From positions 18,989-82,988 of the forward strand of contig CAJFVQ010000019.1 in the NCBI GenBank assembly GCA_904420535.1: a DNA stretch of 64,000 bases. The letters run 5' to 3'. A program made the translations under genes and the position numbers. The first letter of the stretch is position 1. Every line of letters starts with the position of its first letter. A model generated the notes under the pieces. The model was not told where the DNA came from and made no database searches. It worked only from the letters and a program-made list of their open reading frames with translations. The stretch is from Candidatus Cryptoclostridium obscurum. Lineage in GTDB: Bacteria; Bacillota; Dehalobacteriia; UBA7702. Positions 335 through 29,248 of this stretch are shown piece by piece.

Positions 335-510
335 GCTTAATAGGAAAACAGGCCAATCCTGTACTGTCCCAGCAACCGTGCTACAGACGAAAAGACATAG
401 CCCACTGTTTTTGTGAGAAAATGGGAAGGGGTCTTAGTAGGATGAAGTTAAGTCGGTAGACCTGCCGTTCACTGTTTCTCCTGGGTAGAGTTTATGTCAA
501 TTTTGCATGC
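335..510 (+). promoter_or_regulatory. Cobalamin (AdoCbl) riboswitch aptamer in the 5' leader of the cbi operon
   Basis: Conserved elements are present: a B12-box-like AAGTCGGTAGACCTGCC, then GCCCACTG, GGGAAGG and AATCCTG. It lies immediately upstream of cbiP/cobQ. Confidence 0.75.
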
Positions 511-3032: not shown

Positions 3033-3052
3033 ACGGAATCAACGGAGGTCGC

Positions 3053-7099: not shown

Positions 7100-7113
7100 A
7101 AAGGAGATTCACC

Positions 7114-8609: not shown

Positions 8610-8610
8610 C

Positions 8611-14190: not shown

Positions 14191-15154
14191 ACGACCGAGA
14201 CGACTGAGAATCAATGAACAAATACGCTCTTTGGTACGGGAAACTCGTTTGAGCACCAAGGAATTGATGTATCCCATTTTTGTAAAAGACGGCAAAGGCA
14301 TCAAAGAGGAGATCGGCGCCATGCCGGGACAATACAGATACTCCATAGATATGCTGTCGGAAGAGATCAAAGCGGTACAGGAAGCCGGCGTTAACCACGT
14401 CATTCTATTCGGGATTCCCTTCGATGAAGACCACGACGCCTGTGGTTCCTCCGCCCATGACCCCAACGGCATCGTACAGCGTGCCATCAGAGAGATCAAA
14501 GAGCACAGCGATATCTTTGTTACCACCGATGTTTGTCTTTGTGAATACACGGATCACGGCCATTGTGGGATCCTGGATCCCGACGGTTATGTCAATAATG
14601 ACAAAACTCTGGAAGTTTTGGCGAAAACCGCGCTAAGTCACGTAGAAGCCGGCGCCGACATGGTAGCCCCTTCCGATATGATGGACGGTCATATTGCGGC
14701 GCTCCGTTCCATTCTTGATGAGAACAACTTTGTCAACACGCCCATCATGGCTTATGCCGTAAAATATGCTTCTAACTTTTACGGGCCTTTCCGCGAAGCG
14801 GCCAATTCCGCTCCGGGAAAAGGAGATCGCAAAGGGTATCAGATGGATTATCACAACAGCCGTGAAGCAGAAGTGGAGGCAGCTTTGGACGTAAAGGAAG
14901 GCGCTGACATTATCATGGTCAAACCAGCCCTCCCCTATTTGGATATCATTGCTAAATTGCGTCCCCAGATCAAAAAGCCCATGGCGGCATACTGTGTCAG
15001 CGGTGAATACTCTATGATGAAACTGGCAGTAGATAAGGGAATCGTTTCCGAAGATCTTATTTATGAAAGTCACATTGCTATGAAACGCGCCGGCGCCGAT
15101 GCCATTCTGACATACTTTGCCAAAGACTTGGGCAAATTCCTCCAGGAGGTTTAA
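14180..15154 (+). CDS. hemB: Porphobilinogen synthase (ALA dehydratase)
   Basis: 324 aa, HemB-like. GGAGG RBS upstream. Confidence 0.85.
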   Translation: MLIERPRRLRINEQIRSLVRETRLSTKELMYPIFVKDGKGIKEEIGAMPGQYRYSIDMLSEEIKAVQEAGVNHVILFGIPFDEDHDACGSSAHDPNGIVQRAIREIKEHSDIFVTTDVCLCEYTDHGHCGILDPDGYVNNDKTLEVLAKTALSHVEAGADMVAPSDMMDGHIAALRSILDENNFVNTPIMAYAVKYASNFYGPFREAANSAPGKGDRKGYQMDYHNSREAEVEAALDVKEGADIIMVKPALPYLDIIAKLRPQIKKPMAAYCVSGEYSMMKLAVDKGIVSEDLIYESHIAMKRAGADAILTYFAKDLGKFLQEV

Positions 15155-15156
15155 CG

Positions 15157-16446
15157 ATGTGCAAAAATAATAACAAAGAGGAAATTTTGGCATTAAGCAG
15201 AAAGATCATGCCTGGTGGCGTCAACAGTCCAGTACGTGCGTTTCAATCCGTTGAAGTCGCCCCTGTCATTGTGGAATCTGCCCATGGGCCTTATATCAAA
15301 GATATTACCGGCAAAGAGTATATTGACTACGTTTGCTCCTATGGTCCATTAATCTTTGGCCACGCACCACAATTCCTTATTGAGGAAATTCAGGCAGCAG
15401 CGGAAAGCGGGACTACTTACGGATTTACAACCCCCCACGAAGTGGAATTGGCAGAATTGGTCATTGAATCCTACCCGTCCTGTGAAATGATCCGGATGGT
15501 CAACAGTGGTACCGAAGCCACAATGAGCGCCATTCGCGTTGCGCGAGGTTATACCGGGCGCAATAAAATTTTGAAATTTGAAGGATGTTATCACGGCCAC
15601 AGCGACAGTTTATTAGTAAAAAGCGGCAGCGGCCTTTTGACTCAGGGAGTTCCCACCAGCCCTGGTCTGGTACCCGCCTTAGTGGAGCAGACCCTCGTTT
15701 GCCCTTATAATGATGAAGAAGCCCTGGCGGAAATGATCCGAGCCAATCAAGATGAAATCGCCTGCGTGATTTTGGAACCCATCGCCGGAAATATGGGAGT
15801 TTTGGCGCCCCATGAGGGCTATTTGGAAGCGGTACGCAAGCTCTGCACGGAAAACGGCATCGTTTTGATCTTTGATGAAGTCATTACGGGCTTTCGTGTC
15901 GATTACCACTCCGCAGCTGGCGTTTTTAATATTGATCCCGATATGGTTTGTTTCGGGAAGATCATCGGCGGCGGCCTGCCCGTAGGCGCTTACGGCGGCA
16001 AATTGGAAATCATGAAAATGGTCTCCCCTGTGGGGCCGGTATACCAAGGGGGCACCCTTTCCGGCAATCCTTTGGCAATGCGTGCCGGCATCGCCACATT
16101 AAAACGTTTAAAATCCAATCCTGTTATTTACAAAACCTTGGAAGAAAACGCAACCTATCTGAACCGTGGAATCACCGAAGCAATCCAGAAATATCACATC
16201 CCTGCTGTAACCTCCCAATTCAAAGGGATGTTTTGCCTATTCTTTACGGATCGTCCCGTGTCCTCCTATGATGACGTCATGAAATGTGATACGGAACTGT
16301 ACAAGAAATTCTTCGAAGGTATGATGAATGAGGGAATTCTGCTTGCACCTTCTCAGTTTGAAGCATGGTTCCCCTCGACAGCTCATACCAAAGAAGTGTT
16401 GGATCAGACCATTGCGGCAGTCAATCAAGTTTTCGCGAAATTATAA
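15157..16446 (+). CDS. hemL: Glutamate-1-semialdehyde 2,1-aminomutase
   Basis: 429 aa aminotransferase class III with a HemL-like N-terminus. Confidence 0.85.
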   Translation: MCKNNNKEEILALSRKIMPGGVNSPVRAFQSVEVAPVIVESAHGPYIKDITGKEYIDYVCSYGPLIFGHAPQFLIEEIQAAAESGTTYGFTTPHEVELAELVIESYPSCEMIRMVNSGTEATMSAIRVARGYTGRNKILKFEGCYHGHSDSLLVKSGSGLLTQGVPTSPGLVPALVEQTLVCPYNDEEALAEMIRANQDEIACVILEPIAGNMGVLAPHEGYLEAVRKLCTENGIVLIFDEVITGFRVDYHSAAGVFNIDPDMVCFGKIIGGGLPVGAYGGKLEIMKMVSPVGPVYQGGTLSGNPLAMRAGIATLKRLKSNPVIYKTLEENATYLNRGITEAIQKYHIPAVTSQFKGMFCLFFTDRPVSSYDDVMKCDTELYKKFFEGMMNEGILLAPSQFEAWFPSTAHTKEVLDQTIAAVNQVFAKL

Positions 16447-16460
16447 TAAAGGAGTTTGGA

Positions 16461-17156
16461 ATGAAAGGTAAATTTTACGGCATCGGCGTTGGTCCCGGAG
16501 ATCCCGAATTGTTGACCATCAAAGGCAAACGGATCTTGGAAGAAGCGGATTATATTGCCACTCCCAAAACAAAAGGAGATAGCGAAAGCACGGCGCTCCA
16601 TATCGTTTCTCCATATATCGAGGGAAAAGAAGTGATCGAGCTGGTACTTCCGATGACAAAGGATCCTGCCATTTTGGAGCAGGCTTGGAATGATGGGGCA
16701 AAGTGCATTATGGAATACCTGGATCAAGGGAAAAACGTTGCTTTCATCACTTTGGGTGACCCTTCCCTTTTCAGTACGTTTATGTATGTTTTCCGTCCCG
16801 TGCGGGCAGCGGGATATGCCTGGGAAATTGTTCCCGGCGTTACTGCTCCCAGTGCTGCCGCGGCCAAACTGGGAATCGGTTTGGCTGACGGTAAAGAAAA
16901 TATCGCTATTTTAGCGGCAACTACAGACCTGGAAAATGTAGAACGCACCATTGACAACCATGATAATACCGTTTTAATGAAAGGGGCCGGCAAGTGGGAA
17001 GCCATTGCCGAGATCTTGAAAAAGAAGGGTCTGACCGAAAAAACCGCCGCAGCGGAACGCTGCACTATGGAAGGGGAACGATTATTCCCCGATATCAATG
17101 AAATGCCTGAGGATCTCAGCTATTTCCTCACCGCCATTATCAGAAAGGGGTTATGA
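16461..17156 (+). CDS. cbiL: Cobalt-precorrin-2 C20-methyltransferase
   Basis: N-terminus FYGIGVGPGDPELLTIKG. RBS AGGAG. The ORF-track start at 16365 lies inside hemL and is rejected. Confidence 0.8.
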   Translation: MKGKFYGIGVGPGDPELLTIKGKRILEEADYIATPKTKGDSESTALHIVSPYIEGKEVIELVLPMTKDPAILEQAWNDGAKCIMEYLDQGKNVAFITLGDPSLFSTFMYVFRPVRAAGYAWEIVPGVTAPSAAAAKLGIGLADGKENIAILAATTDLENVERTIDNHDNTVLMKGAGKWEAIAEILKKKGLTEKTAAAERCTMEGERLFPDINEMPEDLSYFLTAIIRKGL

Positions 17157-17160
17157 TCGC

Positions 17161-17919
17161 ATGAATCTCGTGAATATTGTCGGGGCGGGCCCCGGCGATC
17201 CTGAACTTATTACCGTCAGAGGAATGAATCTTTTACAAGAAGCCGATATTGTCATTTATGCCGGCTCCCTTGTGAATCCCAAACTTCTGGACTACTGTAA
17301 AAAAGACTGCACCATTTACGACAGCGCAGGCATGAACTTAGACGAAGTCATTGCAGTCATCAAAGAAGAATATCCCAAAGGGAAAAAGATCGTGCGTCTC
17401 CACACCGGCGATCCTTCCATCTATGGCGCCATTCGCGAACAAATGGATATTTTGGAAGGGGCGGGTATTCCCTTCCGAGTGACTCCCGGGGTCAGCTCTT
17501 TCTGCGCCGCAGCGGCAGCGCTGAAAAAGGAATACGTTTTACCCGAAGTCAGCCAGACAGTGATCCTCACCCGTATGGAAGGCCGCACTCCCGTACCGGA
17601 AAAGGAAGATATTCGCAACCTGGCGAAGATCAATGCCACAATGATCATCTTTTTAAGTGTCCACATGATTGAAGATTTGGTGGAACGTTTAAAGGAAGGG
17701 TACCCCGAAGATACGCCGGCAGCAGTGGTTTACAAAGCCTCCTGGCCCGAAGAAAAACAAGTGGTAGGTACTTTGGCGGACATTGCGGAAAAAGTCCATG
17801 AAGCCCAGATCGGACGCACCGCCTTAGTGACTGTGGGACGGTTCCTCGGAGATGAATACGCGTTATCCAAACTGTACGATAAGGGTTTTTCACACGGTTA
17901 TCGGGAAGCCAAAGAATAA
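17161..17919 (+). CDS. cbiF: Cobalt-precorrin-4 C11-methyltransferase
   Basis: N-terminus VNIVGAGPGDPELITVRG. 252 aa. Confidence 0.8.
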   Translation: MNLVNIVGAGPGDPELITVRGMNLLQEADIVIYAGSLVNPKLLDYCKKDCTIYDSAGMNLDEVIAVIKEEYPKGKKIVRLHTGDPSIYGAIREQMDILEGAGIPFRVTPGVSSFCAAAAALKKEYVLPEVSQTVILTRMEGRTPVPEKEDIRNLAKINATMIIFLSVHMIEDLVERLKEGYPEDTPAAVVYKASWPEEKQVVGTLADIAEKVHEAQIGRTALVTVGRFLGDEYALSKLYDKGFSHGYREAKE

Positions 17920-19816: not shown

Positions 19817-20914
19817 TTAAACTATTTGAGACAAACATTCTTTCAATGCATCTAAAAAATAATTATTCTCTTCACGCAAACCAATGGAAACACGAATCGC
19901 TGTGGGGTAGCCAAAAGAATCTGCGCTTCGTACCATAACGCCGCGCTTCAGAAGACTTTGATAGATACGTACTGCACTTGTCTTTACATCGACCAGGAGA
20001 AAATTTGCTTGGCTCTCTAAAACAACAAGTCCCATCGTGCGAAGACGGTTAATCATATACTCCCGCTCCACTTGATTATAGCGAATGCTTTTCTCAAAGT
20101 ATTCTTTATCATTCAGGGCAGCCAAAGCAGCAGCTTGAGCCACGGAACTGATATGATACGGTTCTCTTACTTTATCCAGTTCATAAATGATGGACGCATG
20201 GGCAATGCCGTAGCCAATACGTAATCCGGCCAGACCGTATCCATGGGAAAAAGTACGGATTGAAGCAACGTTGGGAAATTCTTTTAAAAATGTGACACCG
20301 TCGGGGGAATTTGGATAATCTACATAATCGAAGTATGCTTCATCCAAAACCACAAGAATATTGTCCCCTACTCGATTAAGCATCTGCCGCAATCCGCGCT
20401 GTTCGATAACAGTTCCTGTAGGATTGTTAGGGTTGCAAATAAAGATCATCTTAGTTTTACTACTGATAGCAGCTGCCATGGATGGCAGATCAATAACGAA
20501 ATCGTCATTGAGAGGAATGGCTTTACAATGGGCGCCGCACATTGTAGCTAAACGAGCATATTCCCCTAAGGACGGACGGGGAAGAATCACCTCATCTTCA
20601 GGTTCAAGGTATGCCAAACAGAAAAGCTTAATAACTTCATTGGCGCCTGCGCCGAAAACCAATTGATCTGTATTCACCCCCAAATGGCTACTTAGGGCAT
20701 TACGAAGATCAAAACTATCCCCATTGGGATAACGTGCGCTGCGCAAAGAAGCCACTCGCATGGCTTCCACGGCCGAGGAAGGAGGCCCCAAAGGATTTTC
20801 ATTGGAGGAAAGCCTGCAGATATCTTCTAACCCCAATTCTTCCTTTAATTCTTCGATGGGTTTACCTGGACGATAAGGCAAAATTTTTTGAATAGATTTT
20901 CGCGGTTTAATCAT
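19817..20914 (-). CDS. hisC: Histidinol-phosphate aminotransferase family (class II aminotransferase)
   Basis: N-terminus KILPYRPGKPIEELKEELGL...LSSNENPLGP matches HisC family. The start is taken at the MIKPRK methionine (20914). The ORF-track start at 20947 has no RBS. Confidence 0.6.
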   Translation of the reverse strand: MIKPRKSIQKILPYRPGKPIEELKEELGLEDICRLSSNENPLGPPSSAVEAMRVASLRSARYPNGDSFDLRNALSSHLGVNTDQLVFGAGANEVIKLFCLAYLEPEDEVILPRPSLGEYARLATMCGAHCKAIPLNDDFVIDLPSMAAAISSKTKMIFICNPNNPTGTVIEQRGLRQMLNRVGDNILVVLDEAYFDYVDYPNSPDGVTFLKEFPNVASIRTFSHGYGLAGLRIGYGIAHASIIYELDKVREPYHISSVAQAAALAALNDKEYFEKSIRYNQVEREYMINRLRTMGLVVLESQANFLLVDVKTSAVRIYQSLLKRGVMVRSADSFGYPTAIRVSIGLREENNYFLDALKECLSQIV

Positions 20915-21330
20915 TTCAACGTTAATTCCTTTATCTTGTGTGAACATCTAATTAATATTTGAAAACAAATCAGCTTTTTACCGAGCTGTCTGCCTCATTG
21001 GAGTTATTGTAACATAGGAAATTTTATTTGTAAATATAATGCCATTTCATTCAAAACTATAGCAGGTTAGTATCTCAAGAATCAAGGTATTCATTGACAA
21101 TCCATATTTATAACAAAAAAACATACATGATTCCATATTTTGACATTGGTAAAATTTATCGCACAAATCTGCTTTTTTGGATTTTACTGCTCCATTCTAT
21201 ACAAATTCAAGCAGGATAATCCTATTTTTCAAATTACCATCCTAGCCAAAGGAGGTCTTGCATGCTATAATATCAACATCAGAACAAATTATTCCACTCA
21301 AGGAAAAGAGTATCTGTCATTCATCACGAG

Positions 21331-22275
21331 GTGATTAAAATGATTAAATTGGACATCGTTTCCGGATTTTTAGGAGTCGGCAAAACGACCCTAATCAAAC
21401 GATATCTAAAAGCTCTATCCTGTCGAAAGGAAAAAGTCATTCTCATTGAAAATGACTTTGGAGAGATTGGAATTGATAAAGACATTCTAAAAATTGGCGA
21501 TCTTGATATTTATGAAATCAATAGAGGATGCCTATGTTGCAGTTTGAAAGGAACATTCATCGACACATTGCTTCTCATCGCCGAACAGGTCAAGCCTGAT
21601 CGCGTGATCCTGGAACCTTCCGGTATTTTCATTTTAAGCGAAATCTTTGAACTTTTCCGTTATTACCAGATCAGCGACGCCTATGAAATCGGTGGAGTTG
21701 TCACTGTTATTGATGGCCCTCACTTTCGAGATCACCAAGTAAGGTTTGGAAATTTTCTAACCAATCAGATCGATAACGCAGCGCACTTGATGCTCAGTAA
21801 AACATCGGAAATGAAAGAAAATGAACTTTTGGAAGTTGTTGAGGAATTAAGTGACACTTTTCATGGAAAAGAGATTATTGCAAAAGATTGGCGCGATATC
21901 AGCGATGAGGAATTATTACAGATTTTTATCGGTGACGGTACCATCCAAGGAAAGGTCTTAACCGGCAAAGCATTGAAAGAAAAAAAGCAAGAGCGCAGTC
22001 ATCAAGGATTCAGCAGTTATTCATTTTACGGGGGTTCCCCTCTCTCCCCAGAAGAACTGAAGCAAAAACTTCTGTTGTTAAACTCTAAAAACTTTGGAGA
22101 GATCATCCGGGCAAAGGGATTTGTCAAAGAAAAAGAAAACAATCGCTTTCTGGAATTCCATTATGTGGACGGTTCCATTGAAATTCTGCCCAATCAAAAC
22201 AATGATCTCAAAGCCGGCTCATGCTTCATTGGGAAAGATTTGCAAAAAGACGCCTTGGCAGAATTTTTCCAATAA
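21331..22275 (+). CDS. COG0523 / CobW-family G3E P-loop GTPase (putative metallochaperone)
   Basis: Walker A SGFLGVGKTTL, the CxCC metal motif NRGCLCCSL and a C-terminal CobW_C-like domain. 314 aa. Confidence 0.8.
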   Translation: MIKMIKLDIVSGFLGVGKTTLIKRYLKALSCRKEKVILIENDFGEIGIDKDILKIGDLDIYEINRGCLCCSLKGTFIDTLLLIAEQVKPDRVILEPSGIFILSEIFELFRYYQISDAYEIGGVVTVIDGPHFRDHQVRFGNFLTNQIDNAAHLMLSKTSEMKENELLEVVEELSDTFHGKEIIAKDWRDISDEELLQIFIGDGTIQGKVLTGKALKEKKQERSHQGFSSYSFYGGSPLSPEELKQKLLLLNSKNFGEIIRAKGFVKEKENNRFLEFHYVDGSIEILPNQNNDLKAGSCFIGKDLQKDALAEFFQ

Positions 22276-22282
22276 AAAAATA

Positions 22283-22310
22283 AAAGCTTATTTGCAATAA
22301 GCTTTTATGA
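22283..22310 (+). terminator. Rho-independent terminator after the COG0523 gene
   Basis: Hairpin AAAGCTTATTTGCAATAAGCTTTT. Confidence 0.55.
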
Positions 22311-22500
22311 AATGAAGTAAAGCGATAGCTTACAATAACGAAAGGAGGGTAGGCTTTTATAAAACCATTACGCAACATTTCGTATTTTGCTATCTTCAAT
22401 GATCAAATTTAGTATAGCAAATCTCCGATTTTGTTGCAAGGATAATTTTTTTAACAATTATCAAAAAAAAGTACAAAACTTATTGAAAAGGAGATTGAAA

Positions 22501-23880
22501 ATGGCAAGATTAGAATTTAATGAATTAGCTTACAACAATGCCGACGAGCTTATTTTTGGAAAATCGAAAAAACCTGTTACTTGTAAAAACGGTCTTGTAG
22601 TCGGCGGCGGCGAAGTGATTCCCGAATTAAACTATACCCTCCCCATGATGCAGATTACCGAAGAAACCATGCCCAAGGTGCTACAACATTACAAAGAAAT
22701 GACCACCAGCGCTTGTGAAAAAGCCATTGAGCTGAGTGCTCCCTCCCTTTGTTTTGAAATCGAATTGCTTCCAAACTGTACTTTTCATCCCAAATGGGGA
22801 ATTGAAGTCGTAAAGACTGTTGTTGATGTTGCCAAAGAATTTGAAGCAAAATCCAACACGAAATTTATCGTTAGAAATACCCCTGTTGACATCCGTGAAG
22901 GAAAAGGACTTGAACATATGTATCATGGTATGCACTGGGATGCTATTATGGAAACTTTTGCCGGCGGTGCGGAAGCTGGCGCTGATTTGATGGCCATTGA
23001 ATCCATTGGTGGAAAACATATCCATGACGATGCTCTGATGATGGGTGAAATGGATAAATTACTCTTTGCTTTGGGCGTTGTGGGATGCAAAGATATGGGC
23101 ATCCTCTGGGATAACATTGTAAAAATCGGGAAAGAAAAGGACGCGATACCTTCTGGCGATACTGCCTGCGGTTTTGCCAATACCGCGATGGTTCTTGGAA
23201 ACCAGGGGCTCATTCCCCGTACCTGTGCGGCCGTAGATCGCGTTATGACGGCTGTCCGCACCATGGTCGCGGTGGAAGCGGGAGCAATCGGTCCCGACAA
23301 GGATTGCGGCTATGAAGGAGTTTACATGAAAGCCATCACAGGCACTCCCATCTCTATGGAAGGCCGCACCAGCGCTTGTGCACACAGTTCTCATGTCGGC
23401 AATATTGTCGGTGCAATATGCGATATGTGGTCCAATGAATCAGTACAAAATATTCGCTTACTCGGTGGCATGGCTCCCACTGTGTATACCGAACAACTGG
23501 TTTATGATTGCCGCATGATGAATACCGCCACAAAATTAGGGAAAGCCGACGTTTTAAAAGAAATTTTCGTTGAATCTGACAAAGCTTTGGAACCCCATGG
23601 GTACATTATGGACCCCAAAGTTGTCGTCGAAATTTCCAAAAAAATCGTTGCTGCCAAAGGTCATTTTGAAAGAACCAGAATTGCCGCTTTAGCAACCATT
23701 GACGCTCTCAGAAAAGGCTATGACAACAAAGAACTTCTTTTGGCCGACAGAGAATACAGATATCTCGATGTCATGGAAGCATCTCTCAGTAGTGTAACCA
23801 CTGATGTCGAGGCATTTACCGATGAAATGAAAAAAGCCTGTGCCAGCGAAAAATTCAAACCAGAATGGTATGATCTTTAA
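22501..23880 (+). CDS. mtaB: MtaB-family methanol:corrinoid methyltransferase
   Basis: Collinear similarity to Methanosarcina MtaB as recalled from memory. Matching blocks include ELAYNNADELIFGKSK, GADLMAIESIGGK, SGDTACGFANTAM, AVEAGAIGPDKDCGYEGVYMKAITGTPISMEGRTSACAHS and MWSNESV. About 459 aa. RBS AAAGGAG. The ORF-track start at 22387 is an upstream extension. Confidence 0.85.
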   Translation: MARLEFNELAYNNADELIFGKSKKPVTCKNGLVVGGGEVIPELNYTLPMMQITEETMPKVLQHYKEMTTSACEKAIELSAPSLCFEIELLPNCTFHPKWGIEVVKTVVDVAKEFEAKSNTKFIVRNTPVDIREGKGLEHMYHGMHWDAIMETFAGGAEAGADLMAIESIGGKHIHDDALMMGEMDKLLFALGVVGCKDMGILWDNIVKIGKEKDAIPSGDTACGFANTAMVLGNQGLIPRTCAAVDRVMTAVRTMVAVEAGAIGPDKDCGYEGVYMKAITGTPISMEGRTSACAHSSHVGNIVGAICDMWSNESVQNIRLLGGMAPTVYTEQLVYDCRMMNTATKLGKADVLKEIFVESDKALEPHGYIMDPKVVVEISKKIVAAKGHFERTRIAALATIDALRKGYDNKELLLADREYRYLDVMEASLSSVTTDVEAFTDEMKKACASEKFKPEWYDL

Positions 23881-23948
23881 TTTACCATAGCCCACACTTC
23901 ATAATATACTTCATAATATTTTGAACATTTTTATCATCTTTATTTTGC

Positions 23949-23987
23949 TTTAAGGGGAAAATGATTCCCCTTAAGGCTCTTTTTTCA
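23949..23987 (+). terminator. Rho-independent terminator after mtaB
   Basis: Hairpin CTTAAGGGGAAAATGATTCCCCTTAAG followed by CTCTTTTTT. Confidence 0.7.
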
Positions 23988-24126
23988 CATATGGTAGGTT
24001 AGCCTGAAAATTTATTCAAATTTTTCATTGTAGCTTATATTATCATCAGGTATAATGAAAAAAGAGACCATACAATAAAGATGTCATAATACACGAATCG
24101 TCAAATTGTTTCGAGGAGATGACAAA

Positions 24127-25428
24127 ATGGGTAACTCTGAATTCCAATGGCTCGATACAAGTAAAGAAAAGGGCTTTCTGGAAAAAGCACTGCGTTCTTT
24201 CTCCACGTTCAGTGGTTTGAAAGCATCCTTAGTGGATAAAGAGGGAAATACCGTAGTCAGTACGGAAAATTATGTACCGGACTGTAGATTTTGTCAACTG
24301 ATTAAAAGTGATCCACAGGGAAAACAAAAATGCCGCCGTTCTTATGCTCGTGCCGGTCGTGAAGCGGCAAAATACGGGGAGCCTTATGTTTTTCGTTGCC
24401 ATGCAGGTTTGGTGGCGTGGGCAGTGCCTATTATTATCAACAAACATCAAGGGGCTGTCATCTGCGGCCAGGTTTTAATGTGGGAGCCAGAAGACTATTT
24501 TTTAGACGAAATTGGTATGATGGTAAAAGATCTGGACGTCAATATTTCTGAAATTAAGATGGCAGCACTGCAGTTAAACGTGTTACCCAGTGATAAAGTA
24601 CAAGCCATCACCGATTTACTTTTTGTCATCGCCAACCAAATCATGAATCATGAATCTACTTTCTTTTCGGAACAAAAAAGCATCGCAGCATATCAAGCAT
24701 TGCTTTCAGAAGAAATCAGCGAGTCAAAAAAGAAAAATAAATACAAAATGACAAAGAATCTTGCAGACGGCCTTTCTCTTCAAGGAGAAGAACGGGAATT
24801 AATGGCAAAGGTTCGCAGTGGAGAAAAGGATTCGGCAGAAAAATTACTGGATCACTTGTTAATTACGATCATCAATCACAATACGGGAAATCTCGGCGAT
24901 GTAAAAGCCAGAATCATTGAATTACTGGTAATGATTTCCCGCGCCGCCGTGGATGGAGGAATGGACTCTAAAGAAATCCGCAACCTAAATAGCCGTTTTT
25001 ATGAGGAACTTTATGCAAAACGAACGACGGAAGAAATTTGTTATTGGACAAAAAATGTCGTCAGTATTTTTTCCGAAGAAGTCAGAAAAGCCAAAGGAAA
25101 CGACAACCTGCAAGCAGTTTATGCAGCGGGAGAATACATCCAAAAACATTTTCGAGAAAAACTATCCATTCAATCCATCGCTGAAGTAGTTCATCTCAGC
25201 CCAAGCTATTTAAGTCATATTTTCAGCCAAACTTTTGGCTATACCATAACGGATTATGTGACATATATCCGTTTAGAAAATGCAAAGTCAATTTTGAGTA
25301 AAAGCGGCACCAGCATCAGCGAAGCAGCTTTGGATTCAGGATTTGAAGATATCAGCTATTTTTCCAGAGTGTTTAAGAAAGTGGAAGGCATTAGTCCACG
25401 AGAATACAAGAAGAGGCAATTACCATGA
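24127..25428 (+). CDS. PocR sensory domain + AraC-family HTH transcriptional regulator
   Basis: The N-terminal ~170 aa resemble a PocR ligand-binding domain. The C-terminal ~100 aa form an AraC-type HTH (YLSHIFSQTFGYT...FEDISYFSRVFKK). The start is at the ATG with a GAGGAG RBS. Confidence 0.75.
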   Translation: MGNSEFQWLDTSKEKGFLEKALRSFSTFSGLKASLVDKEGNTVVSTENYVPDCRFCQLIKSDPQGKQKCRRSYARAGREAAKYGEPYVFRCHAGLVAWAVPIIINKHQGAVICGQVLMWEPEDYFLDEIGMMVKDLDVNISEIKMAALQLNVLPSDKVQAITDLLFVIANQIMNHESTFFSEQKSIAAYQALLSEEISESKKKNKYKMTKNLADGLSLQGEERELMAKVRSGEKDSAEKLLDHLLITIINHNTGNLGDVKARIIELLVMISRAAVDGGMDSKEIRNLNSRFYEELYAKRTTEEICYWTKNVVSIFSEEVRKAKGNDNLQAVYAAGEYIQKHFREKLSIQSIAEVVHLSPSYLSHIFSQTFGYTITDYVTYIRLENAKSILSKSGTSISEAALDSGFEDISYFSRVFKKVEGISPREYKKRQLP

Positions 25429-26078
25429 GCAAAGAAGATATGGAGTGCATTCAAGAAGCTGTATTAAACGGTCAGGCCAACAAAGTAAAGATCTTGACCA
25501 CCCTTGCCATTGAAAATGGGATTGACCCCGGAGAGATTCTATTTGAGGGTTTGTTAGAACCATTAAAGGTCATAAGCCAAAAATTAAAAAGTAATGAAAT
25601 TTTTACAGCGGAAGTTCTGATCATTTCCAGAGCAGTTCACGCAGGTCTTCATGTTTTAGGCCCCTTTCTCAGCGAATCTCATCAAAATCTCCGCGGAAAA
25701 GTCATTATTGGCACTGTTGCTGGGGATCTCCACGATATTGGCAAGAACCTCGTCGCAATGACATTGGAAAGTTTGGGAATGAAAGTTATTGACCTTGGCA
25801 TCGACGTTTATCCTGAAGATTTTGTGGCTGCAGTCATAGAACACAAACCAGATTTTGTAGCACTTTCCGCCATGCTGACAACAACCATCAACATGATCGT
25901 GGAAACCGTCCATAAACTGGAGGTTGCAGGCTTGCGCAAAAATGTCAAGGTCATCATTGGCGGCAACCCCGTGACCAATGATTTTTGTTTTTCCTCCGGT
26001 GCCGACGGTACCTGCGAAGAATTAAAAGAGATCGAAGATATGGTACGCCATCTCAAACCCTCGCTGTTTAAAGATTAG
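25425..26078 (+). CDS. mtaC: MtaC-like corrinoid (cobalamin-binding) protein
   Basis: N-terminal B12-binding_2 cap helix bundle, then a Rossmann B12 domain with the DxHxxG motif (GDLHDIGKN). 217 aa. ATGA overlap with the regulator stop. Confidence 0.8.
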   Translation: MSKEDMECIQEAVLNGQANKVKILTTLAIENGIDPGEILFEGLLEPLKVISQKLKSNEIFTAEVLIISRAVHAGLHVLGPFLSESHQNLRGKVIIGTVAGDLHDIGKNLVAMTLESLGMKVIDLGIDVYPEDFVAAVIEHKPDFVALSAMLTTTINMIVETVHKLEVAGLRKNVKVIIGGNPVTNDFCFSSGADGTCEELKEIEDMVRHLKPSLFKD

Positions 26079-26087: not shown

Positions 26088-26118
26088 AAAAACCACTGTA
26101 GTAAAACAGTGGTTTTTT
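26088..26118. terminator. Bidirectional terminator between the convergent mtaC and mtaD genes
   Basis: Hairpin AAAACCACTGTAGTAAAACAGTGGTTTTTT. Confidence 0.7.
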
Positions 26119-26130: not shown

Positions 26131-27414
26131 TTACATTCGTGCCGCACGGTGTTGAACCTCTTGGTAAAGTTTCCCTTCGTCTATATTGACACATTTTCTT
26201 TCCCGTACGATAATTTTTCCATTGACGATTACCGTATGAACATCACCGCTCTTCATGCAATAAACCAGATGGCTCAAAAGGCTGTGCCGCTCCGTTCGCG
26301 GATAAAAATGGGGCCGCCAGAGAGAAATGATGTTGATGTCGGCCTTTTTCCCTACTTCCAAAGTACCGATTTCATCGTCAAGTCCCAAGGCTTTGGCGCC
26401 GTTGATCGTAGCCATGGACAACGCCTCGTAGGGGTTGAGAGCATCGGCATCCTTTTGGGCGACCTTTTGCAAAAGTATTGCGGTACGCATTTCTTCAACC
26501 ATATCGAGGTCATTGTTACTGGCCGCGCCGTCAGTACCCAATGCAATGGGCACGCCATGTTTTTTTAACTCCCCATGGGGGAAAATTCCGGAAGCCAATT
26601 TCATGTTGCTTTGGGGACAATGAATCGCCGAAACGCCACGTTCCCCTGCCAACTCCATTTCGGATTCATCTAAATGAACCATATGGGCTGCCAGCACTTT
26701 GTGCCGCAAAAGGCCGGTGGAATCAAGATATTGCAGCGCGCGTTTGCCGTGGTTTCGCAGACAGGCTTCCTGCTCTATTTCGGTCTCCGCCACATGAATA
26801 TGGATCGGCAATCCTGTTTCCTCCGCAGCATGGGCGATACTTTGCAGGTAATTTTCGGAACAACTGTAAAGGGCGTGAGGAGCCAACATAAAATGGATCC
26901 GTCCTTCCAGATCGTTTTCATGTTCTTTCGCAAACCGGAGGGCTTCTCTCAAGTAGTATTCGCCGCGGCCGTCGTAATCTACCAATCCTGCCCCAAGCAC
27001 CCCACGGATCCCGCTGGTCTCTGCAGCCCAGATCGCAGATCCCGGATCGAAGTACATATCGGCATAGCAGGTAGTACCACTTTTCAGCATCTCTAAATGG
27101 GCCAAAAGGTTACCTAGATAAAAATCCTCGTCAGTGAGACTATTTTCAGCAGGGCGGATCACATCTTGCAGCCATTGTTCCAAAGGAAGCCCTTCACCGT
27201 AACCGCGCAACATGGTCATGGCGGCATGGGTATGACAGTTCACAAAACCAGGCAAAGCGCATTTATCCTGGCCATAGATGATCTCATCTCCCCATTTGGG
27301 GACAATATCTCCCATAGCAGTAATTCGCTGTCCCTCGATACGTATGGAACCATGATGGAATTCTCCCCTACCCGTCATGGGCAGGTATAAAATATCTTTA
27401 ATAAATATCGCCAT
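26131..27414 (-). CDS. mtaD: 5'-methylthioadenosine/S-adenosylhomocysteine deaminase (amidohydrolase superfamily)
   Basis: HxH metal motif FVNCHTHAAMTMLRG. 427 aa. Similar to the chlorohydrolase/MtaD subgroup. Confidence 0.75.
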   Translation of the reverse strand: MAIFIKDILYLPMTGRGEFHHGSIRIEGQRITAMGDIVPKWGDEIIYGQDKCALPGFVNCHTHAAMTMLRGYGEGLPLEQWLQDVIRPAENSLTDEDFYLGNLLAHLEMLKSGTTCYADMYFDPGSAIWAAETSGIRGVLGAGLVDYDGRGEYYLREALRFAKEHENDLEGRIHFMLAPHALYSCSENYLQSIAHAAEETGLPIHIHVAETEIEQEACLRNHGKRALQYLDSTGLLRHKVLAAHMVHLDESEMELAGERGVSAIHCPQSNMKLASGIFPHGELKKHGVPIALGTDGAASNNDLDMVEEMRTAILLQKVAQKDADALNPYEALSMATINGAKALGLDDEIGTLEVGKKADINIISLWRPHFYPRTERHSLLSHLVYCMKSGDVHTVIVNGKIIVRERKCVNIDEGKLYQEVQHRAARM

Positions 27415-27416
27415 AA

Positions 27417-28436
27417 TTATCCCAGCATTTCCGCGATGCCTTTTTGGTAATCCCCGTGAATAATTCCTTTCTCCGTGATAATCGCTGTAATGAGCTCATG
27501 AGGCGTCACATCGAAGGCGGGATTCACCACCGGCACTTCTCGGGGAGCGGTAAAAATGCCGCCCAGAGAACGTACTTCATCGCCATTTCTTTCTTCTATG
27601 ATAATATCCTTTCCCGTGGCTGTCGTCAAGTCAAAAGTTGACAACGGCGCTGTAATATAAAAAGGAATTTTATGGTACTGCGCCAGAACAGCCAGGCCGT
27701 AGGTTCCAATCTTATTGGCGGCATCGCCGTTGGCCGCGATGCGGTCGGCCCCGGTGATCACCAGATCAATTTTCCCCTGCCCCATAAGATAAGCGGCCAT
27801 ATTATCGGTAATCAGCGTGACGGGAATATGGTCCTCCATCAATTCATAAGCCGTGAGGCGGGCGCCTTGGAGCAGCGGACGCGTTTCATCAGCATAGACC
27901 ATGGAAACTTTTCCCTGTTCATGACCGCGGCGAATAATTCCAAGGGCTGTACCGTAACCGCCGGTGGCCAATGCTCCCGCATTGCAATGCGTCAAAATAT
28001 GAGCATGATCGGGAATCAACGTCGCTCCGTATGCCGACAAAACCTTGCAGCGGGAAATATCATCCTCTTCGATCTCTTTTGCCTTATCTAACAAAGATTG
28101 AGGATCATAGGTTCCGCCGTTTCCCTGCCAAACACTTCTCATTTGCTCCAAAGCCCAGAAAAGGTTGACTGCCGTAGGCCGCGTTGCGGCAATCGCTTTT
28201 TCCGCTTCCTCCATAAATTTTCGGAAATTTCCCAATGTGGGATTCCATGCCTCGGCGGCGATGACCATTCCATAGGCCCCCGCAATGCCAATGGCAGGAG
28301 CCCCACGCACCGCCAATGTCCGGATCATTTCGCAAACGTCCTCCACGGTTTTGCAAGCTATGATTTTTACCTCATTGGGTAAAAGACGCTGATCCAAAAG
28401 ATAGAGACAATGGTTTTTCCATTCAATGTGTTTCAT
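27417..28436 (-). CDS. mtnA: S-methyl-5-thioribose-1-phosphate isomerase
   Basis: eIF-2B alpha/beta/delta-like. N-terminus HCLYLLDQRLLP is typical of MtnA. Confidence 0.8.
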   Translation of the reverse strand: MKHIEWKNHCLYLLDQRLLPNEVKIIACKTVEDVCEMIRTLAVRGAPAIGIAGAYGMVIAAEAWNPTLGNFRKFMEEAEKAIAATRPTAVNLFWALEQMRSVWQGNGGTYDPQSLLDKAKEIEEDDISRCKVLSAYGATLIPDHAHILTHCNAGALATGGYGTALGIIRRGHEQGKVSMVYADETRPLLQGARLTAYELMEDHIPVTLITDNMAAYLMGQGKIDLVITGADRIAANGDAANKIGTYGLAVLAQYHKIPFYITAPLSTFDLTTATGKDIIIEERNGDEVRSLGGIFTAPREVPVVNPAFDVTPHELITAIITEKGIIHGDYQKGIAEMLG

Positions 28437-28465
28437 AGTTTCACACTTTCCTCAAACTGTCGACA

Positions 28466-29248
28466 TTATTTCACAGGTCCCGCTGTTCCGCGGCACTGGC
28501 AATCTCCGTTCCCGGCGATCAGTGGAATTGCCGCCAACAACAAAGATTTAATGGTTGCTGAATTCTCTGCCATAACTTCCAGCACCTCTTCATGAGTGAG
28601 GTGCGTCGGACTGACACCGGCAGCATAATTTGTCACCATGGCAATGGTGGCATAACACATTCCGACTTCTCTGGCCAAGGCCACTTCCGGGAAGGAAGTC
28701 ATGCCTACAAGATCACCGCCCATATGACGGTACATTTTAATTTCCGCCGGAGTTTCAAACCGGGGCCCCTCAGTACAGACATATACGCCGCCATCGTGAG
28801 CTTGATGAGCGATTGCTGATGCAGCCTGGGTCAACCCTTTCCGCAAGTGGGGGCAGTATGGTTCCGTCATATCCGTATGAACAACCCCCATATCCCCGCC
28901 GTCAAAAAATGTGCATTGTCTGGCTTTGGTAAACTCTAAATACTGATCGGGAAAGACAAAGTGTCCCGGAGCCATATCCAAATTCAAAGATCCTACCGCG
29001 GCAGTTGCCATAATTTTGGTAACACCGAGTTCCTTCAATCCCCAGATGTTGGCGCGATAATTGATCATGTGGGGAGGTACCGAATGGCCTTTGCCATGAC
29101 GGTTCATAAATACCACATCAAAGCCTTGATAATTGCCGGTCACAGCGTTCATCATGCCGTAGGGCGTGGAAACGCCGACTTCCTTCACATCCCCCAGGAT
29201 GCTGGGGTCATAAACACCGGTGCCACCGATAATTGCGATTTTCTCCAT
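28466..29248 (-). CDS. mtnP: S-methyl-5'-thioadenosine (or -thioinosine) phosphorylase
   Basis: N-terminus IAIIGGTG. PNP/MTAP family. 260 aa. Its ATG lies 3 nt after the ftsY stop and has a GGAGG RBS. Confidence 0.8.
   Translation of the reverse strand: MEKIAIIGGTGVYDPSILGDVKEVGVSTPYGMMNAVTGNYQGFDVVFMNRHGKGHSVPPHMINYRANIWGLKELGVTKIMATAAVGSLNLDMAPGHFVFPDQYLEFTKARQCTFFDGGDMGVVHTDMTEPYCPHLRKGLTQAASAIAHQAHDGGVYVCTEGPRFETPAEIKMYRHMGGDLVGMTSFPEVALAREVGMCYATIAMVTNYAAGVSPTHLTHEEVLEVMAENSATIKSLLLAAIPLIAGNGDCQCRGTAGPVK

What the first reader, a model, noticed from the sequence alone, without database searches (positions are those of the whole stretch)
21331..22275. COG0523 metallochaperone-type GTPase directly upstream of a zinc-dependent MtaB methyltransferase
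MtaB-family enzymes activate methanol at an active-site zinc. COG0523 proteins (GCxCC motif, here CLCC) are GTP-dependent zinc/metal chaperones. Their genomic neighbour frequently indicates the client. The tight linkage here suggests a dedicated metal-insertion or maturation factor for MtaB. I do not know this to have been described for methanol methyltransferases.
Basis: inference. Interest (0 to 1): 0.55.

Follow-up and report, generated by a model that had tools for sequence, protein, structure and literature searches.

The report
Metal-chaperone gene beside methanol methyltransferase
A gene for a COG0523-type metal-chaperone NTPase really does sit next to a zinc-dependent methanol methyltransferase gene, and the pairing is conserved across many bacteria, but it was already reported in 2009 and its proposed job of loading zinc into the enzyme is still untested.

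Summary
Window 21340-22275 (+) encodes a 311-aa two-domain COG0523 protein. It has an intact P-loop, a CLCC motif and the EPSG switch. A full-length MtaB gene (22501-23880) follows, with its Glu/Cys/Cys zinc ligands conserved.

The linkage is not chance. Relatives down to about 37% identity lie beside MtaB, a PocR/AraC regulator and corrinoid proteins, in rearranged orders. 13 of 35 well-flanked metagenomic MtaB loci carry a COG0523 gene within 3 kb, usually directly downstream of mtaB. 0 of 79 other clostridial COG0523 loci have MtaB within 10 kb. The linked proteins form one clade (81% bootstrap).

I found no Zur box. The protein is not CobW or ZigA by NCBIfam scores.

In this genome the gene is probably a separate transcription unit. 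It has a conserved promoter, and a 225-nt spacer with a conserved hairpin separates it from mtaB.

The idea is not new. Haas et al. 2009 defined COG0523 "subgroup 13", which co-localises with mtaA/mtaB/mtaC/ramA. Sousa et al. 2018 found the operon-encoded homologue of D. kuznetsovii co-induced with MtaB and MtaC.

Zinc delivery to MtaB is still an inference. A role in cobalt or corrinoid handling is not excluded.

Verdict: a real, ordinary new member of a known but biochemically untested kind.

The parts
21243..21271 (+). Promoter-like site of the COG0523 gene: TAGCCA, 17 nt, TATAAT, with a TG extension
   Evidence: Consensus scan gives 10 of 12 matches with TG. The extended -10 TGCTATAAT and the ATCCTAGCCAAAG block are conserved in the upstream regions of homologous loci L001, L003 and L006. 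Function is inferred.
21340..22275 (+). COG0523 (G3E P-loop NTPase) gene, 311 aa.
   Evidence: Pfam cobW and CobW_C. Homologues are 311-312 aa. AF2 model has mean pLDDT 81.4, and its best fold match is Zn-bound YjiA 4IXM.
21364..21390 (+). Walker A / P-loop, GFLGVGKTT
   Evidence: Read from the sequence. SGFLGxGKTT is invariant in 28 homologues.
21529..21540 (+). CLCC (CxCC) putative metal-binding motif
   Evidence: Read from the sequence. G63/C64/C66/C67 are invariant. C66 and C67 align with C66 and C67 of YjiA, and E37 aligns with YjiA E37. These are the residues mutated in the Zn-site triple mutant 4IXN.
22280..22308 (+). Perfect 13-bp hairpin just after the COG0523 stop codon; weak, possibly bidirectional terminator
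   Evidence: Inverted repeat I2. RNA fold gives -11.6 kcal/mol, z=-3.0. The stem is conserved in L001 and L003 while the loop differs. It has only 2 G-C pairs, so the terminator scan did not call it.
22434..22450 (+). Conserved block TTGCAAGGATAATTTTT upstream of mtaB; candidate mtaB promoter or regulator site
   Evidence: GCAAGGA is invariant in four lineages, including L006 at 48% protein identity. The only close copy in the window is this one. Function is inferred.
22501..23880 (+). mtaB homologue (methanol:corrinoid methyltransferase family), 459 aa
   Evidence: Pfam MtaB E=2.7e-163. 2I2X match E=1.2e-88 with the Zn ligands aligned. E167, C223 and C269 are invariant in 7 bacterial homologues.
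23947..23977 (+). Intrinsic-terminator-like hairpin after mtaB
   Evidence: 13-pair stem with 6 G-C pairs, followed by a T-run.
24127..25428 (+). PocR-sensor / AraC-type regulator. The ORF opens at TTG 24106; the likely start is ATG 24127, giving 433 aa.
   Evidence: Pfam PocR, HTH_18 and HTH_AraC. The L001 homologue is 433 aa. This gene is a recurrent partner of MtaB and COG0523.
25425..26078 (+). Corrinoid (B12-binding) protein of MtaC/MtgC type, 217 aa. Its start overlaps the regulator's stop codon (ATGA).
   Evidence: Pfam B12-binding_2 and B12-binding. NCBIfam pyl_corrinoid and MtgC-like hits fall below their cut-offs.
26088..26117 (+). Bidirectional terminator-like hairpin that closes the cluster
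   Evidence: 12-pair stem with T-runs on both strands.

Best explanation
The gene at 21340-22275 encodes a COG0523-family P-loop NTPase of the clade that travels with corrinoid-dependent methyltransferase systems (Haas et al. subgroup 13 by gene context). It is an accessory maturation factor of the adjacent methanol methyltransferase module, which consists of MtaB, a PocR/AraC regulator and an MtaC-like corrinoid protein.

Most likely mechanism (inferred):
1. With nucleotide bound, the protein assembles a thiolate metal site from its CxCC motif, with the conserved Glu37.
2. It docks onto apo-MtaB through its variable C-terminal domain.
3. Nucleotide hydrolysis releases Zn(II) into MtaB's Glu-Cys-Cys site. 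In other lineages the client would be a URO-D/MtaA-type zinc methyltransferase.

In this genome the gene is probably transcribed on its own, from a conserved extended -10 promoter. It is not under Zur control.

Shown: family membership, motifs, conserved and clade-specific linkage, absence of a Zur box, and conserved zinc ligands in MtaB. Shown elsewhere: co-induction of an operon-encoded homologue with MtaB and MtaC in D. kuznetsovii. Inferred: the metal (zinc), the client (MtaB), the direction of transfer, and the nucleotide used.
For: **Family**
- Pfam cobW and CobW_C.
- YjiA is the best sequence match and the best fold match.
- The P-loop, GCxCC and EP(S/T)G are invariant.
- YjiA Zn-site residues E37, C66 and C67 align with E37, C66 and C67 here.

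**Client plausibility**
- MtaB residues E167, C223 and C269 align with E164, C220 and C269 of 2I2X. They are invariant in 7 homologues.

**Linkage, sampling through COG0523 similarity**
- Window lineage at 84% and 67% identity.
- L006 at 48% identity.
- Desulfolucanica intricata at 41%, divergent orientation.
- C. formicaceticum at 38%, gene order MtaB-COG0523-MtaC-RACo with an 11-nt gap.
- Desulfosporosinus sp. BG at 42%.
- L093 and L094.
- More divergent members sit in URO-D/corrinoid protein/RACo operons (L091) or beside URO-D alone (L092).

**Linkage, sampling through MtaB**
- 13 of 35 loci with at least 3 kb on both sides have a COG0523 gene within 3 kb.
- 14 of 21 such genes lie 350 nt or less downstream of mtaB on the same strand.

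**Specificity**
- 0 of 79 other clostridial COG0523 loci have MtaB within 10 kb.
- In a neighbour-joining tree of 105 proteins, 35 of 36 members of one clade have methyltransferase context, against 2 of 69 outside it. Bootstrap support is 162/200.

**Literature**
- Haas 2009 subgroup 13.
- Desku_0053 is about 1.8 log10 units higher on methanol plus cobalt, in parallel with MtaB.

**Rivals excluded**
- No Zur box.
- CobW model scores 100.8 bits against a cut-off of 332. ZigA scores 74.8 against 600.
- The B12 operon upstream is the anaerobic CbiD/CbiG type. It is absent from that position in the 67%-identity relatives.
Against: - No experiment on any member of this clade shows metal binding, metal transfer or a phenotype. 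None turned up in 9 full-text searches.
- The corrinoid protein is nearly as constant a neighbour as the zinc methyltransferase.
- Cobamide and cobalt genes also recur nearby: CobT/DBI_PRT, CobU and CbiMQO, plus the whole cbi operon 3.4 kb upstream here. A cobalt or corrinoid role therefore cannot be excluded on context alone.
- The D. kuznetsovii homologue responds to cobalt supply, as does the whole operon.
- About 60% of well-flanked MtaB loci lack a nearby COG0523 gene, so the factor is accessory, or is encoded elsewhere in those genomes.
- In this genome the gene is separated from mtaB by 225 nt with a hairpin, so co-transcription is unlikely and co-regulation is unproven.
- The guanine-specifying Asp of NKxD is replaced (SKTS), so even the nucleotide is uncertain.
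- 21 of the 36 clade members were sampled through MtaB, which inflates the clade-context association.
Confidence: 0.55

Rival explanations
1. Corrinoid- or cobalt-directed factor. The protein serves the corrinoid side of the system rather than MtaB's zinc site. It might supply or edit cobalt or the cobamide cofactor for the MtaC-like protein, or assist RACo-type reactivation. This would be analogous to the G3E relative MeaB/MMAA, which gates B12 loading into methylmalonyl-CoA mutase, or to CobW, which delivers Co(II).
For: - Corrinoid proteins are present in most linked loci.
- RACo is often adjacent. L091 has RACo directly upstream, and L007 and L009 have it next door.
- Cobamide and cobalt genes recur nearby: CobT, CobU and CbiM/Q/O.
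- The window itself has a riboswitch-controlled cbi operon 3.4 kb upstream.
- The D. kuznetsovii homologue rises only when cobalt and B12 are supplied, and its authors read it as B12 synthesis.
- The closest NCBIfam models by score are CobW and a CobW-related selenoprotein.
Against: - The CobW equivalog score is far below its cut-off (100.8 against 332.1).
- CobW works with CobNST in the late-insertion pathway, whereas this genome encodes the early-insertion CbiD/CbiG route (pathway logic from PMC7689651 and PMC10206600).
- The cbi operon is not upstream in the 67%-identity relatives.
- The gene's most frequent immediate neighbour is mtaB, not the corrinoid gene (14 of 21).
- Some pairs have no corrinoid protein in the flanks: L092 over 8 kb, L109 over 6.8 kb downstream, and L173 over 10 kb.
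- MeaB-type B12 chaperones lack the CxCC thiolate motif, which is invariant here.
- The cobalt dependence in D. kuznetsovii applies to the whole operon, so it does not discriminate.
Confidence: 0.2
2. Generic low-zinc-response paralogue (YciC/ZigA/ZagA type). It would be transcribed independently under Zur and only fortuitously next to mtaB.
For: - The gene appears to be its own transcription unit, with a conserved promoter at 21243-21271 and a hairpin at 22280-22308.
- COG0523 proteins of several subfamilies are Zur-regulated (PMC2770081).
Against: - No Zur-box-like site lies in 20948-21340 at up to 3 mismatches. The six window-wide hits are all elsewhere and are no more than chance gives.
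- The ZigA model scores 74.8 bits against a cut-off of 600.
- The linker has no His-rich stretch.
- The linkage to MtaB is conserved and clade-specific.
- Caveat: only the Bacillus-type Zur consensus was tested. The Zur motif of this uncultured lineage is unknown.
Confidence: 0.05
3. Assembly or stabilisation factor without metal transfer. The NTPase would promote MtaB-MtaC complex formation or protect MtaB's Cys ligands. In this lineage it may be ATP-driven rather than GTP-driven.
For: - The guanine-specificity Asp of the G4 motif is not conserved in this clade (SKTS, SKTQ, SKVQ and others).
- The C-terminal domain is the variable, client-facing part of COG0523 proteins (PMC7689651).
- MtaB and MtaC form a tight complex in the solved structure 2I2X.
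Against: - The CxCC motif and Glu37 are invariant, which argues that metal binding is retained.
- The degenerate G4 motif is shared with 79 unrelated-context clostridial COG0523 genes (SRTQ/SHTx), so it is not an adaptation of this clade.
- There is no direct evidence for this role.
Confidence: 0.1

Closest known systems
COG0523 subgroup 13 of Haas et al. 2009 (MA4382/MA4381, MM1072, Mbar_A1056, MMP0833, Dhaf_0359, Dhaf_3562, CLB_1516, Swol_0421)
   Same: It is a COG0523 protein encoded next to corrinoid-dependent methyltransferase genes (mtaB, corrinoid protein; in relatives also URO-D/MtaA-type methyltransferases, MeTr and RamA/RACo). Haas et al. use exactly this context to define the subgroup, and they already point out that MtaA and MtaB are zinc enzymes.
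   Different: - Monophyly with the named members could not be tested because their sequences were not retrievable here.
- The window gene lies upstream of mtaB as a separate transcription unit, and its cluster includes a PocR/AraC regulator that the 2009 description does not mention.
- The locus has no MT2 and no activator gene anywhere in the 64 kb.
Desku_0053, 'cobalamin synthesis protein P47K', of Desulfofundulus (Desulfotomaculum) kuznetsovii
   Same: It is a COG0523/P47K protein encoded in a bacterial methanol methyltransferase cluster (MtaB Desku_0051, MtaC Desku_0052, P47K Desku_0053, ferredoxin Desku_0054). It is co-induced with MtaB on methanol plus cobalt.
   Different: - There the gene is in the operon, downstream of mtaC. 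Here it is upstream and separately transcribed.
- Sequence relatedness to the window protein was not measured.
- Its authors read it as a B12-synthesis protein.
E. coli YjiA (PDB 1NIJ, 4IXM), structural prototype of COG0523
   Same: - Two-domain fold (Foldseek E=1.6e-16 over about 330 columns).
- P-loop, CxCC and switch II motifs.
- The Zn-site residues E37, C66 and C67 are conserved at the same positions.
   Different: - Only about 21% identity overall.
- YjiA has TKTD at the G4 motif, where this protein has SKTS.
- YjiA has no known dedicated client and no methyltransferase context.
CobW (Co(II) chaperone for CobNST cobaltochelatase)
   Same: It belongs to the same family and has the same CxCC thiolate site. 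It is the best-scoring NCBIfam model. The window also carries B12 biosynthesis genes.
   Different: - It scores 100.8 bits against a cut-off of 332.1.
- There is no cobN, and the pathway here is the anaerobic one (CbiD, CbiG).
- This gene has no B12 riboswitch in front of it.
- The cbi operon adjacency is not conserved.
ZigA / YciC (ZagA) / ZNG1, zinc metallochaperones of COG0523
   Same: The proposed chemistry is the same: nucleotide-coupled Zn(II) handling through CxCC and delivery to a zinc enzyme client (ZNG1 to METAP1; stated from general knowledge, not tested here).
   Different: - There is no Zur box.
- The ZigA model scores 74.8 against 600.
- There is no His-rich segment.
- The client is suggested by conserved operon context rather than by a zinc-starvation regulon.

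Membership tests
COG0523 (G3E P-loop NTPase, CobW/P47K family) | N-terminal cobW/HypB/UreG nucleotide-binding domain with Walker A GxxGxGK[ST] | tested here: met
   PF02492 E=1.2e-33. GFLGVGKTT is invariant in 28 homologues.
COG0523 (G3E P-loop NTPase, CobW/P47K family) | CxCC motif between Walker A and Walker B/switch II | tested here: met
   GCLCCS at residues 63-68. C64, C66 and C67 are invariant and align with the YjiA CICC motif.
COG0523 (G3E P-loop NTPase, CobW/P47K family) | C-terminal CobW_C domain and the two-domain YjiA-like fold | tested here: met
   PF07683 E=2.2e-8. AF2 model pLDDT 81.4. Best Foldseek hits are YjiA 4IXM and 1NIJ across both domains.
Canonical GTP-specific G3E GTPase | G4 motif (N/T)KxD, whose Asp reads the guanine base | tested here: not met
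   SKTS aligns with YjiA TKTD. The Lys is invariant, but the Asp is replaced by S, Q, T, G or K in most clade members. Other clostridial COG0523 genes have SRTQ or SHTx. 'GTPase' is therefore an assumption; nucleotide specificity is untested.
Haas et al. 2009 COG0523 subgroup 13 | Genes co-localise with corrinoid-dependent methyltransferases, corrinoid proteins and RamA-type activators | tested here: met
   MtaB and a corrinoid protein are adjacent here. In relatives, URO-D, Pterin_bind methyltransferase and RACo are adjacent as well.
Haas et al. 2009 COG0523 subgroup 13 | Monophyly with the named members (MA4382, MM1072, Dhaf_0359 and others) | not testable with these tools
   The sequences of the named members could not be retrieved. 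Among the 105 sequences held here, the context-linked proteins form one clade with 81% bootstrap support.
CobW (cobalt chaperone of aerobic B12 synthesis) | Passes the TIGR02475 equivalog cut-off | tested here: not met
   100.8 bits against a cut-off of 332.1, and the match covers only residues 5-131.
CobW (cobalt chaperone of aerobic B12 synthesis) | Encoded with cobN/cobST, usually behind a B12 riboswitch | tested here: not met
   The upstream operon is CbiP-CbiB-CbiC-CbiD-CbiET-CbiG-...-CbiJ-CbiA-HemA, the anaerobic route. The only riboswitch is at 306-483. Nothing was found in 20900-24200 even at E<=1.
Zur-regulated zinc-homeostasis COG0523 (YciC/ZagA, ZigA) | Zur operator in the promoter | tested here: not met
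   There is no match to TCGTAATNATTACGA at up to 3 mismatches in 20948-21340. No conserved palindrome lies around the conserved promoter. Only the Bacillus-type consensus was tried.
Zur-regulated zinc-homeostasis COG0523 (YciC/ZagA, ZigA) | Passes the ZigA equivalog model; His-rich metal-binding stretch | tested here: not met
   NF038288 scores 74.8 bits against a cut-off of 600. The linker (residues 200-230) has a single His. Only the P. litorale homologues carry a Cys/His-rich insert.
MtaB, methanol:corrinoid methyltransferase (the neighbour) | Full-length MtaB fold family with the Glu-Cys-Cys zinc site | tested here: met
   PF12176 E=2.7e-163. E167, C223 and C269 align with E164, C220 and C269 of 2I2X. 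The identity of the ligands is taken from my memory of Hagemeier et al. 2006 and was not re-read.
MtaB, methanol:corrinoid methyltransferase (the neighbour) | Passes the archaeal MtaB equivalog model NF040651 | tested here: not met
   420.8 bits against a cut-off of 720. It is a bacterial homologue. Methanol as its substrate is inferred, not shown.

The most novel reading that the evidence does not exclude
This clade may not be a zinc insertase at all. It could be a nucleotide-driven chaperone for the corrinoid side of methyltransferase systems, loading, exchanging or protecting the cobamide or cobalt of MtaC-type proteins. That would make it a CxCC-bearing functional analogue of MeaB/MMAA for corrinoid methyltransferases. 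It might run on ATP rather than GTP, given the lost guanine-specificity Asp.
Probability: 0.15. Interest if true: 0.7.

Novelty: new member of a known kind. Interest (0 to 1): 0.3.

Why it matters
Methanol and other methylotrophic corrinoid methyltransferase systems drive acetogenesis, methanogenesis and sulfate reduction on C1 compounds, and they are being engineered for biocatalysis. How their zinc and cobamide centres are loaded in vivo is unknown.

A dedicated COG0523 factor would be one of the few cases in which the client of a COG0523 chaperone can be read from operon structure. The association is strong: 37% of well-flanked bacterial MtaB loci carry the gene, and the linked proteins form one clade.

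This makes the metal-transfer hypothesis directly testable, and it could improve heterologous expression of MtaABC systems. For this window, however, the finding adds a further example rather than a new concept. It also corrects the misleading label 'cobalamin synthesis protein'.

Tried and rejected
- **Zur control.** I searched the window for the Bacillus-type Zur box at up to 3 mismatches. There was none upstream of the gene, and the window-wide count (6) is within chance.
- **CobW or B12-biosynthesis role.** Rejected on NCBIfam score, the anaerobic cbi pathway and the non-conserved adjacency.
- **Riboswitch or known RNA in the spacers.** The Rfam gathering scan found only the cobalamin riboswitch at 306-483. 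An E<=1 scan of 20900-24200 gave only chance hits to eukaryotic RNAs.
- **Shared operator between promoters.** The conserved mtaB-upstream block TTGCAAGGATAATTTTT has no second copy upstream of the COG0523 or pocR genes. Repeat searches of the three spacers found nothing shared.
- **Degenerate G4 motif as a clade-specific adaptation.** Rejected, because 79 unrelated-context clostridial COG0523 genes are even more degenerate.
- **The 90-aa ORF between COG0523 and mtaB in L006.** It has no Pfam hit and no counterpart ORF in the window, so it is probably spurious.
- **The genome-contig scan with the family alignment.** It mostly returned other COG0523 types, because the patterns came from the generic N-domain. 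I used these as a negative control rather than as relatives.
- **The first bootstrap run.** It was invalid, with NaN distances in about 38% of replicates. I repeated it with capped distances.
- **Edmonds et al. 2021 COG0523 review.** It is not held in the library, so I could not check whether it treats this cluster.
- **MlpA-type gene-cluster paper and the 2026 Moorella methanol paper.** Neither mentions a G3E/COG0523 protein.
Full report
**1. What is at the coordinates**

The ORF 21331-22275 (+) exists. It carries the Pfam cobW nucleotide-binding domain (E=1.2e-33) and the CobW_C domain (E=2.2e-8).

The GTG at 21331 sits inside the Shine-Dalgarno sequence GAGGTG. An ATG follows at 21340. All close homologues are 311-312 aa. 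I therefore place the gene at 21340-22275 (311 aa).

These motifs are read directly from the sequence:
- P-loop GFLGVGKTT
- ILEPSG

All three are invariant across 28 homologues that share 31-84% identity.

E. coli YjiA is the best PDB sequence match. An AlphaFold2 model (mean pLDDT 81.4) matches Zn-bound YjiA best, at Foldseek E=1.6e-16 across both domains. YjiA residues E37, C66 and C67 are the ones mutated in the Zn-site triple mutant 4IXN. They align with E37, C66 and C67 here.

One deviation stands out. The G4 motif is SKTS where YjiA has TKTD, so the guanine-reading Asp is missing. This is not specific to the clade, because 79 other clostridial COG0523 genes have SRTQ or SHTx.

**2. The neighbourhood**

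Downstream lies a full-length MtaB homologue. It scores Pfam E=2.7e-163 and 301 bits to M. barkeri MtaB, PDB 2I2X. Its true start is ATG 22501 (459 aa), not the TTG at 22387.

Residues E167, C223 and C269 align with E164, C220 and C269 of 2I2X. As I recall from Hagemeier et al. 2006, those are the zinc ligands. They are invariant in seven bacterial homologues.

Next come two more genes:
- A PocR-sensor/AraC regulator at 24127-25428.
- An MtaC/MtgC-like corrinoid protein at 25425-26078, overlapping the regulator by ATGA.

Strong terminator-like hairpins follow mtaB (23947-23977) and the corrinoid gene (26088-26117).

Upstream on the opposite strand are a hisC/cobD-like aminotransferase and two further genes. 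Beyond them lies a cobalamin riboswitch (306-483). It heads an anaerobic-type B12 and haem-precursor operon: CbiP, CbiB, CbiC, CbiD, CbiET, CbiG, CbiJ, CbiA, HemA and others.

The 64-kb window contains no MT2 (URO-D or pterin-binding type) and no RACo activator.

**3. Transcription units in this genome**

The COG0523 gene is not tightly coupled to mtaB.
- It has its own promoter-like site, TAGCCA-17-TATAAT with a TG extension, at 21243-21271. The extended -10 element is conserved in lineages at 84%, 67% and 48% protein identity.
- Its stop codon is followed by a perfect 13-bp hairpin (22280-22308). The hairpin folds at -11.6 kcal/mol with z=-3.0, and its stem is conserved while the loop varies.
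- A further 190 nt follow. They include a conserved TTGCAAGGATAAT block in front of mtaB.

No Rfam family matches these spacers. No Zur-box-like site lies upstream of the gene.

**4. Is the linkage conserved?**

*Sampling by COG0523 similarity.* This route is independent of context, and it gave these neighbourhoods:

| Locus | Identity to window protein | Neighbourhood |
|---|---|---|
| L001, L003 | 84%, 67% | Same four-gene cluster. At 67% identity FeoAB replaces the cbi operon upstream. |
| L006 | 48% | Same cluster in an unrelated neighbourhood |
| Desulfolucanica intricata (L007) | 41% | Divergent from CP-MtaB-PocR-CP-CP; beside RACo and a pterin methyltransferase |
| Clostridium formicaceticum (L009) | 38% | PocR-CP-pterinMT-MtaB-COG0523-CP-RACo, with 11 nt between mtaB and the COG0523 gene |
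| Desulfosporosinus sp. BG (L011) | 42% | MtaB, PocR and CP present |
| L093, L094 | about 37% | MtaB-COG0523 or MtaB-CP-COG0523, plus URO-D |
| Romboutsia lituseburensis (L091) | about 39% | URO-D-CP-URO-D-RACo-COG0523-URO-D; no MtaB |
| Peptoclostridium litorale (L092) | about 31% | URO-D-YibE_F-COG0523; no corrinoid protein within 8 kb |
| L095 | about 32% | Orphan; no methyltransferase context |

(CP = corrinoid protein.)

*Negative control.* 79 COG0523 loci from GTDB species representatives resemble the query only in the N-domain. None has MtaB within 10 kb, and two have corrinoid genes.

*Sampling by MtaB.* I took 78 metagenomic loci whose MtaB is 45-59% identical to the window's.
- Of the 35 loci with at least 3 kb on both sides, 13 (37%) have a COG0523 gene within 3 kb and 19 have a corrinoid protein.
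- Of 21 COG0523 genes found, 14 lie 350 nt or less downstream of mtaB on the same strand, 5 are upstream and divergent, and 2 are further downstream.

*Tree.* I built a neighbour-joining tree of 105 COG0523 proteins taken from all loci. It puts 35 of the 37 context-linked proteins into one 36-member clade, with bootstrap support of 162/200. L095 is the only clade member without methyltransferase context. A URO-D/CP/RACo-linked protein (L086) is the sister.

*Caveat.* 21 clade members were recruited through MtaB. The independent support therefore rests on the roughly ten lineages sampled by similarity.

**5. What it most likely does**

The family's established biochemistry is nucleotide-coupled assembly of a thiolate metal site at CxCC, followed by delivery to a client. 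The variable C-terminal domain confers client specificity (review PMC7689651).

The recurrent clients suggested by context are MtaB and URO-D/MtaA-type methyltransferases. Haas et al. cite both as zinc-dependent. mtaB is the most frequent immediate neighbour.

I therefore favour a dedicated Zn(II) insertase or maturation factor for MtaB. I put confidence at about 0.55 for zinc-to-MtaB specifically, and at about 0.85 for the looser claim that it is an accessory factor of the methyltransferase system.

The main rival is a corrinoid- or cobalt-directed role. Several observations keep it alive:
- Corrinoid proteins are nearly constant neighbours.
- RACo is often adjacent.
- CobT, CobU, CbiMQO and CooT genes occur in several loci.
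- The D. kuznetsovii homologue rises only with cobalt and B12, though so does the whole operon.

A generic Zur-regulated zinc paralogue and a CobW role are effectively excluded.

**6. Comparison with what is known**

Haas et al. 2009 defined COG0523 "subgroup 13" as co-localising with methyltransferases, corrinoid-binding proteins and RamA. They named mtaA, mtaB, mtaC and ramM clusters in Methanosarcina, and clusters in C. botulinum, D. hafniense and S. wolfei. They also remarked that MtaA and MtaB are zinc-dependent.

In D. kuznetsovii the operon reads MtaB (Desku_0051), MtaC (0052), 'cobalamin synthesis protein P47K' (0053), ferredoxin (0054). Desku_0053 is about 1.8 log10 LFQ units higher on methanol with cobalt than without, in parallel with MtaB (PMC5770442 supplement). 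The same operon is drawn in PMC11206085.

Nine full-text searches found no biochemical or genetic test of any member. The 2021 COG0523 review by Edmonds et al. is not held in the library.

The association is therefore known and the function is untested. This window adds one more member. It differs in gene order (upstream, separately transcribed), and its PocR/AraC partner is not mentioned in the 2009 description.

**7. Verdict**

The linkage is real and conserved and there is no Zur control, but the zinc-to-MtaB step is inferred and the claim of novelty is wrong.
- Novelty: new member of a known kind.
- Interest: 0.3.

Noticed in passing
window 306-483 and 598-17919 (+): A cobalamin riboswitch (74.4 bits) heads a long anaerobic-type B12 and tetrapyrrole-precursor operon (CbiP, CbiB, CbiC, CbiD, CbiET, CbiG, CbiJ, CbiA, HemA, HemB, HemL and others). 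It lies 3.4 kb from the methyltransferase cluster. This adjacency is absent in relatives at 67% identity.
   Followed up: partly
window 24127-25428 and 25425-26078: A PocR-sensor/AraC regulator overlaps the corrinoid-protein gene by ATGA. A PocR/AraC gene accompanies MtaB in most COG0523-linked loci and in 15 of 35 well-flanked MtaB loci. The signal sensed by this PocR domain (methanol or corrinoid?) is unknown.
   Followed up: partly
window 21793-21804 (residues 152-155, SKTS); loci L012-L090: The guanine-specificity Asp of the NKxD G4 motif is missing from this protein. It is also missing from almost all of the 79 other clostridial COG0523 genes sampled, which have SRTQ or SHTx and have lost the Lys as well. 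This questions the 'GTPase' label for a large clostridial branch of the family.
   Followed up: partly
window 22339-22348 and 22434-22450: In the COG0523-mtaB spacer, a strong ribosome-binding-site-like CGAAAGGAGG is conserved in four lineages but is followed by no ORF in the window. L006 has a doubtful 90-aa ORF at that position. A conserved TTGCAAGGATAAT block lies 50 nt before the mtaB ribosome-binding site. Neither matches an Rfam family.
   Followed up: partly
whole window (tblastn): The 64 kb encode no MT2 (URO-D or pterin-binding methyl-corrinoid:THF methyltransferase) and no RACo/RamA activator. The methanol system at this locus is therefore incomplete and must rely on genes elsewhere in the genome.
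   Followed up: yes
loci L104, L106, L107, L119, L120, L131, L142, L150, L154, L172 and others: 13 of 35 well-flanked metagenomic MtaB-homologue loci have neither a corrinoid protein nor a COG0523 gene within 3 kb. These 'orphan' MtaB homologues may do something other than classical MtaBC chemistry.
   Followed up: no
L109 1620-9391; L094 1-5500; L093 4220-6160; L173 14073-14726: Cobamide and cobalt genes cluster with MtaB-COG0523 pairs. L109 reads CobT(DBI_PRT)-MtaB-COG0523-ECF S component-AAA-VWA(CoxE)-CbiM. L094 has CbiM/Q/O, two CooT genes and a short cobW-domain-only ORF. L173 has CobU. This keeps a cobalt or corrinoid role open.
   Followed up: partly
P0117 and P0120 (Peptoclostridium litorale; locus L092 8001-9074): These homologues carry a Cys/His-rich insertion of about 45 residues between the two domains (for example CSCGCGRYEDHSCSHEGYDRSRGHDHSHEGNCDCGCSCEGHDHEH). 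They sit next to a URO-D methyltransferase and a YibE_F membrane protein, with no corrinoid protein within 8 kb.
   Followed up: no
window 26131-29248 (-): A methionine-salvage-like trio lies immediately downstream on the opposite strand: an amidohydrolase (MTA/SAH deaminase type), an IF-2B-family MtnA-like isomerase and a PNP_UDP_1 phosphorylase. It is syntenic in the close relatives L001 and L003.
   Followed up: no
window 23896-23919: A perfect tandem duplication, ACTTCATAATAT x2, lies just after the mtaB stop codon and before its terminator.
   Followed up: no
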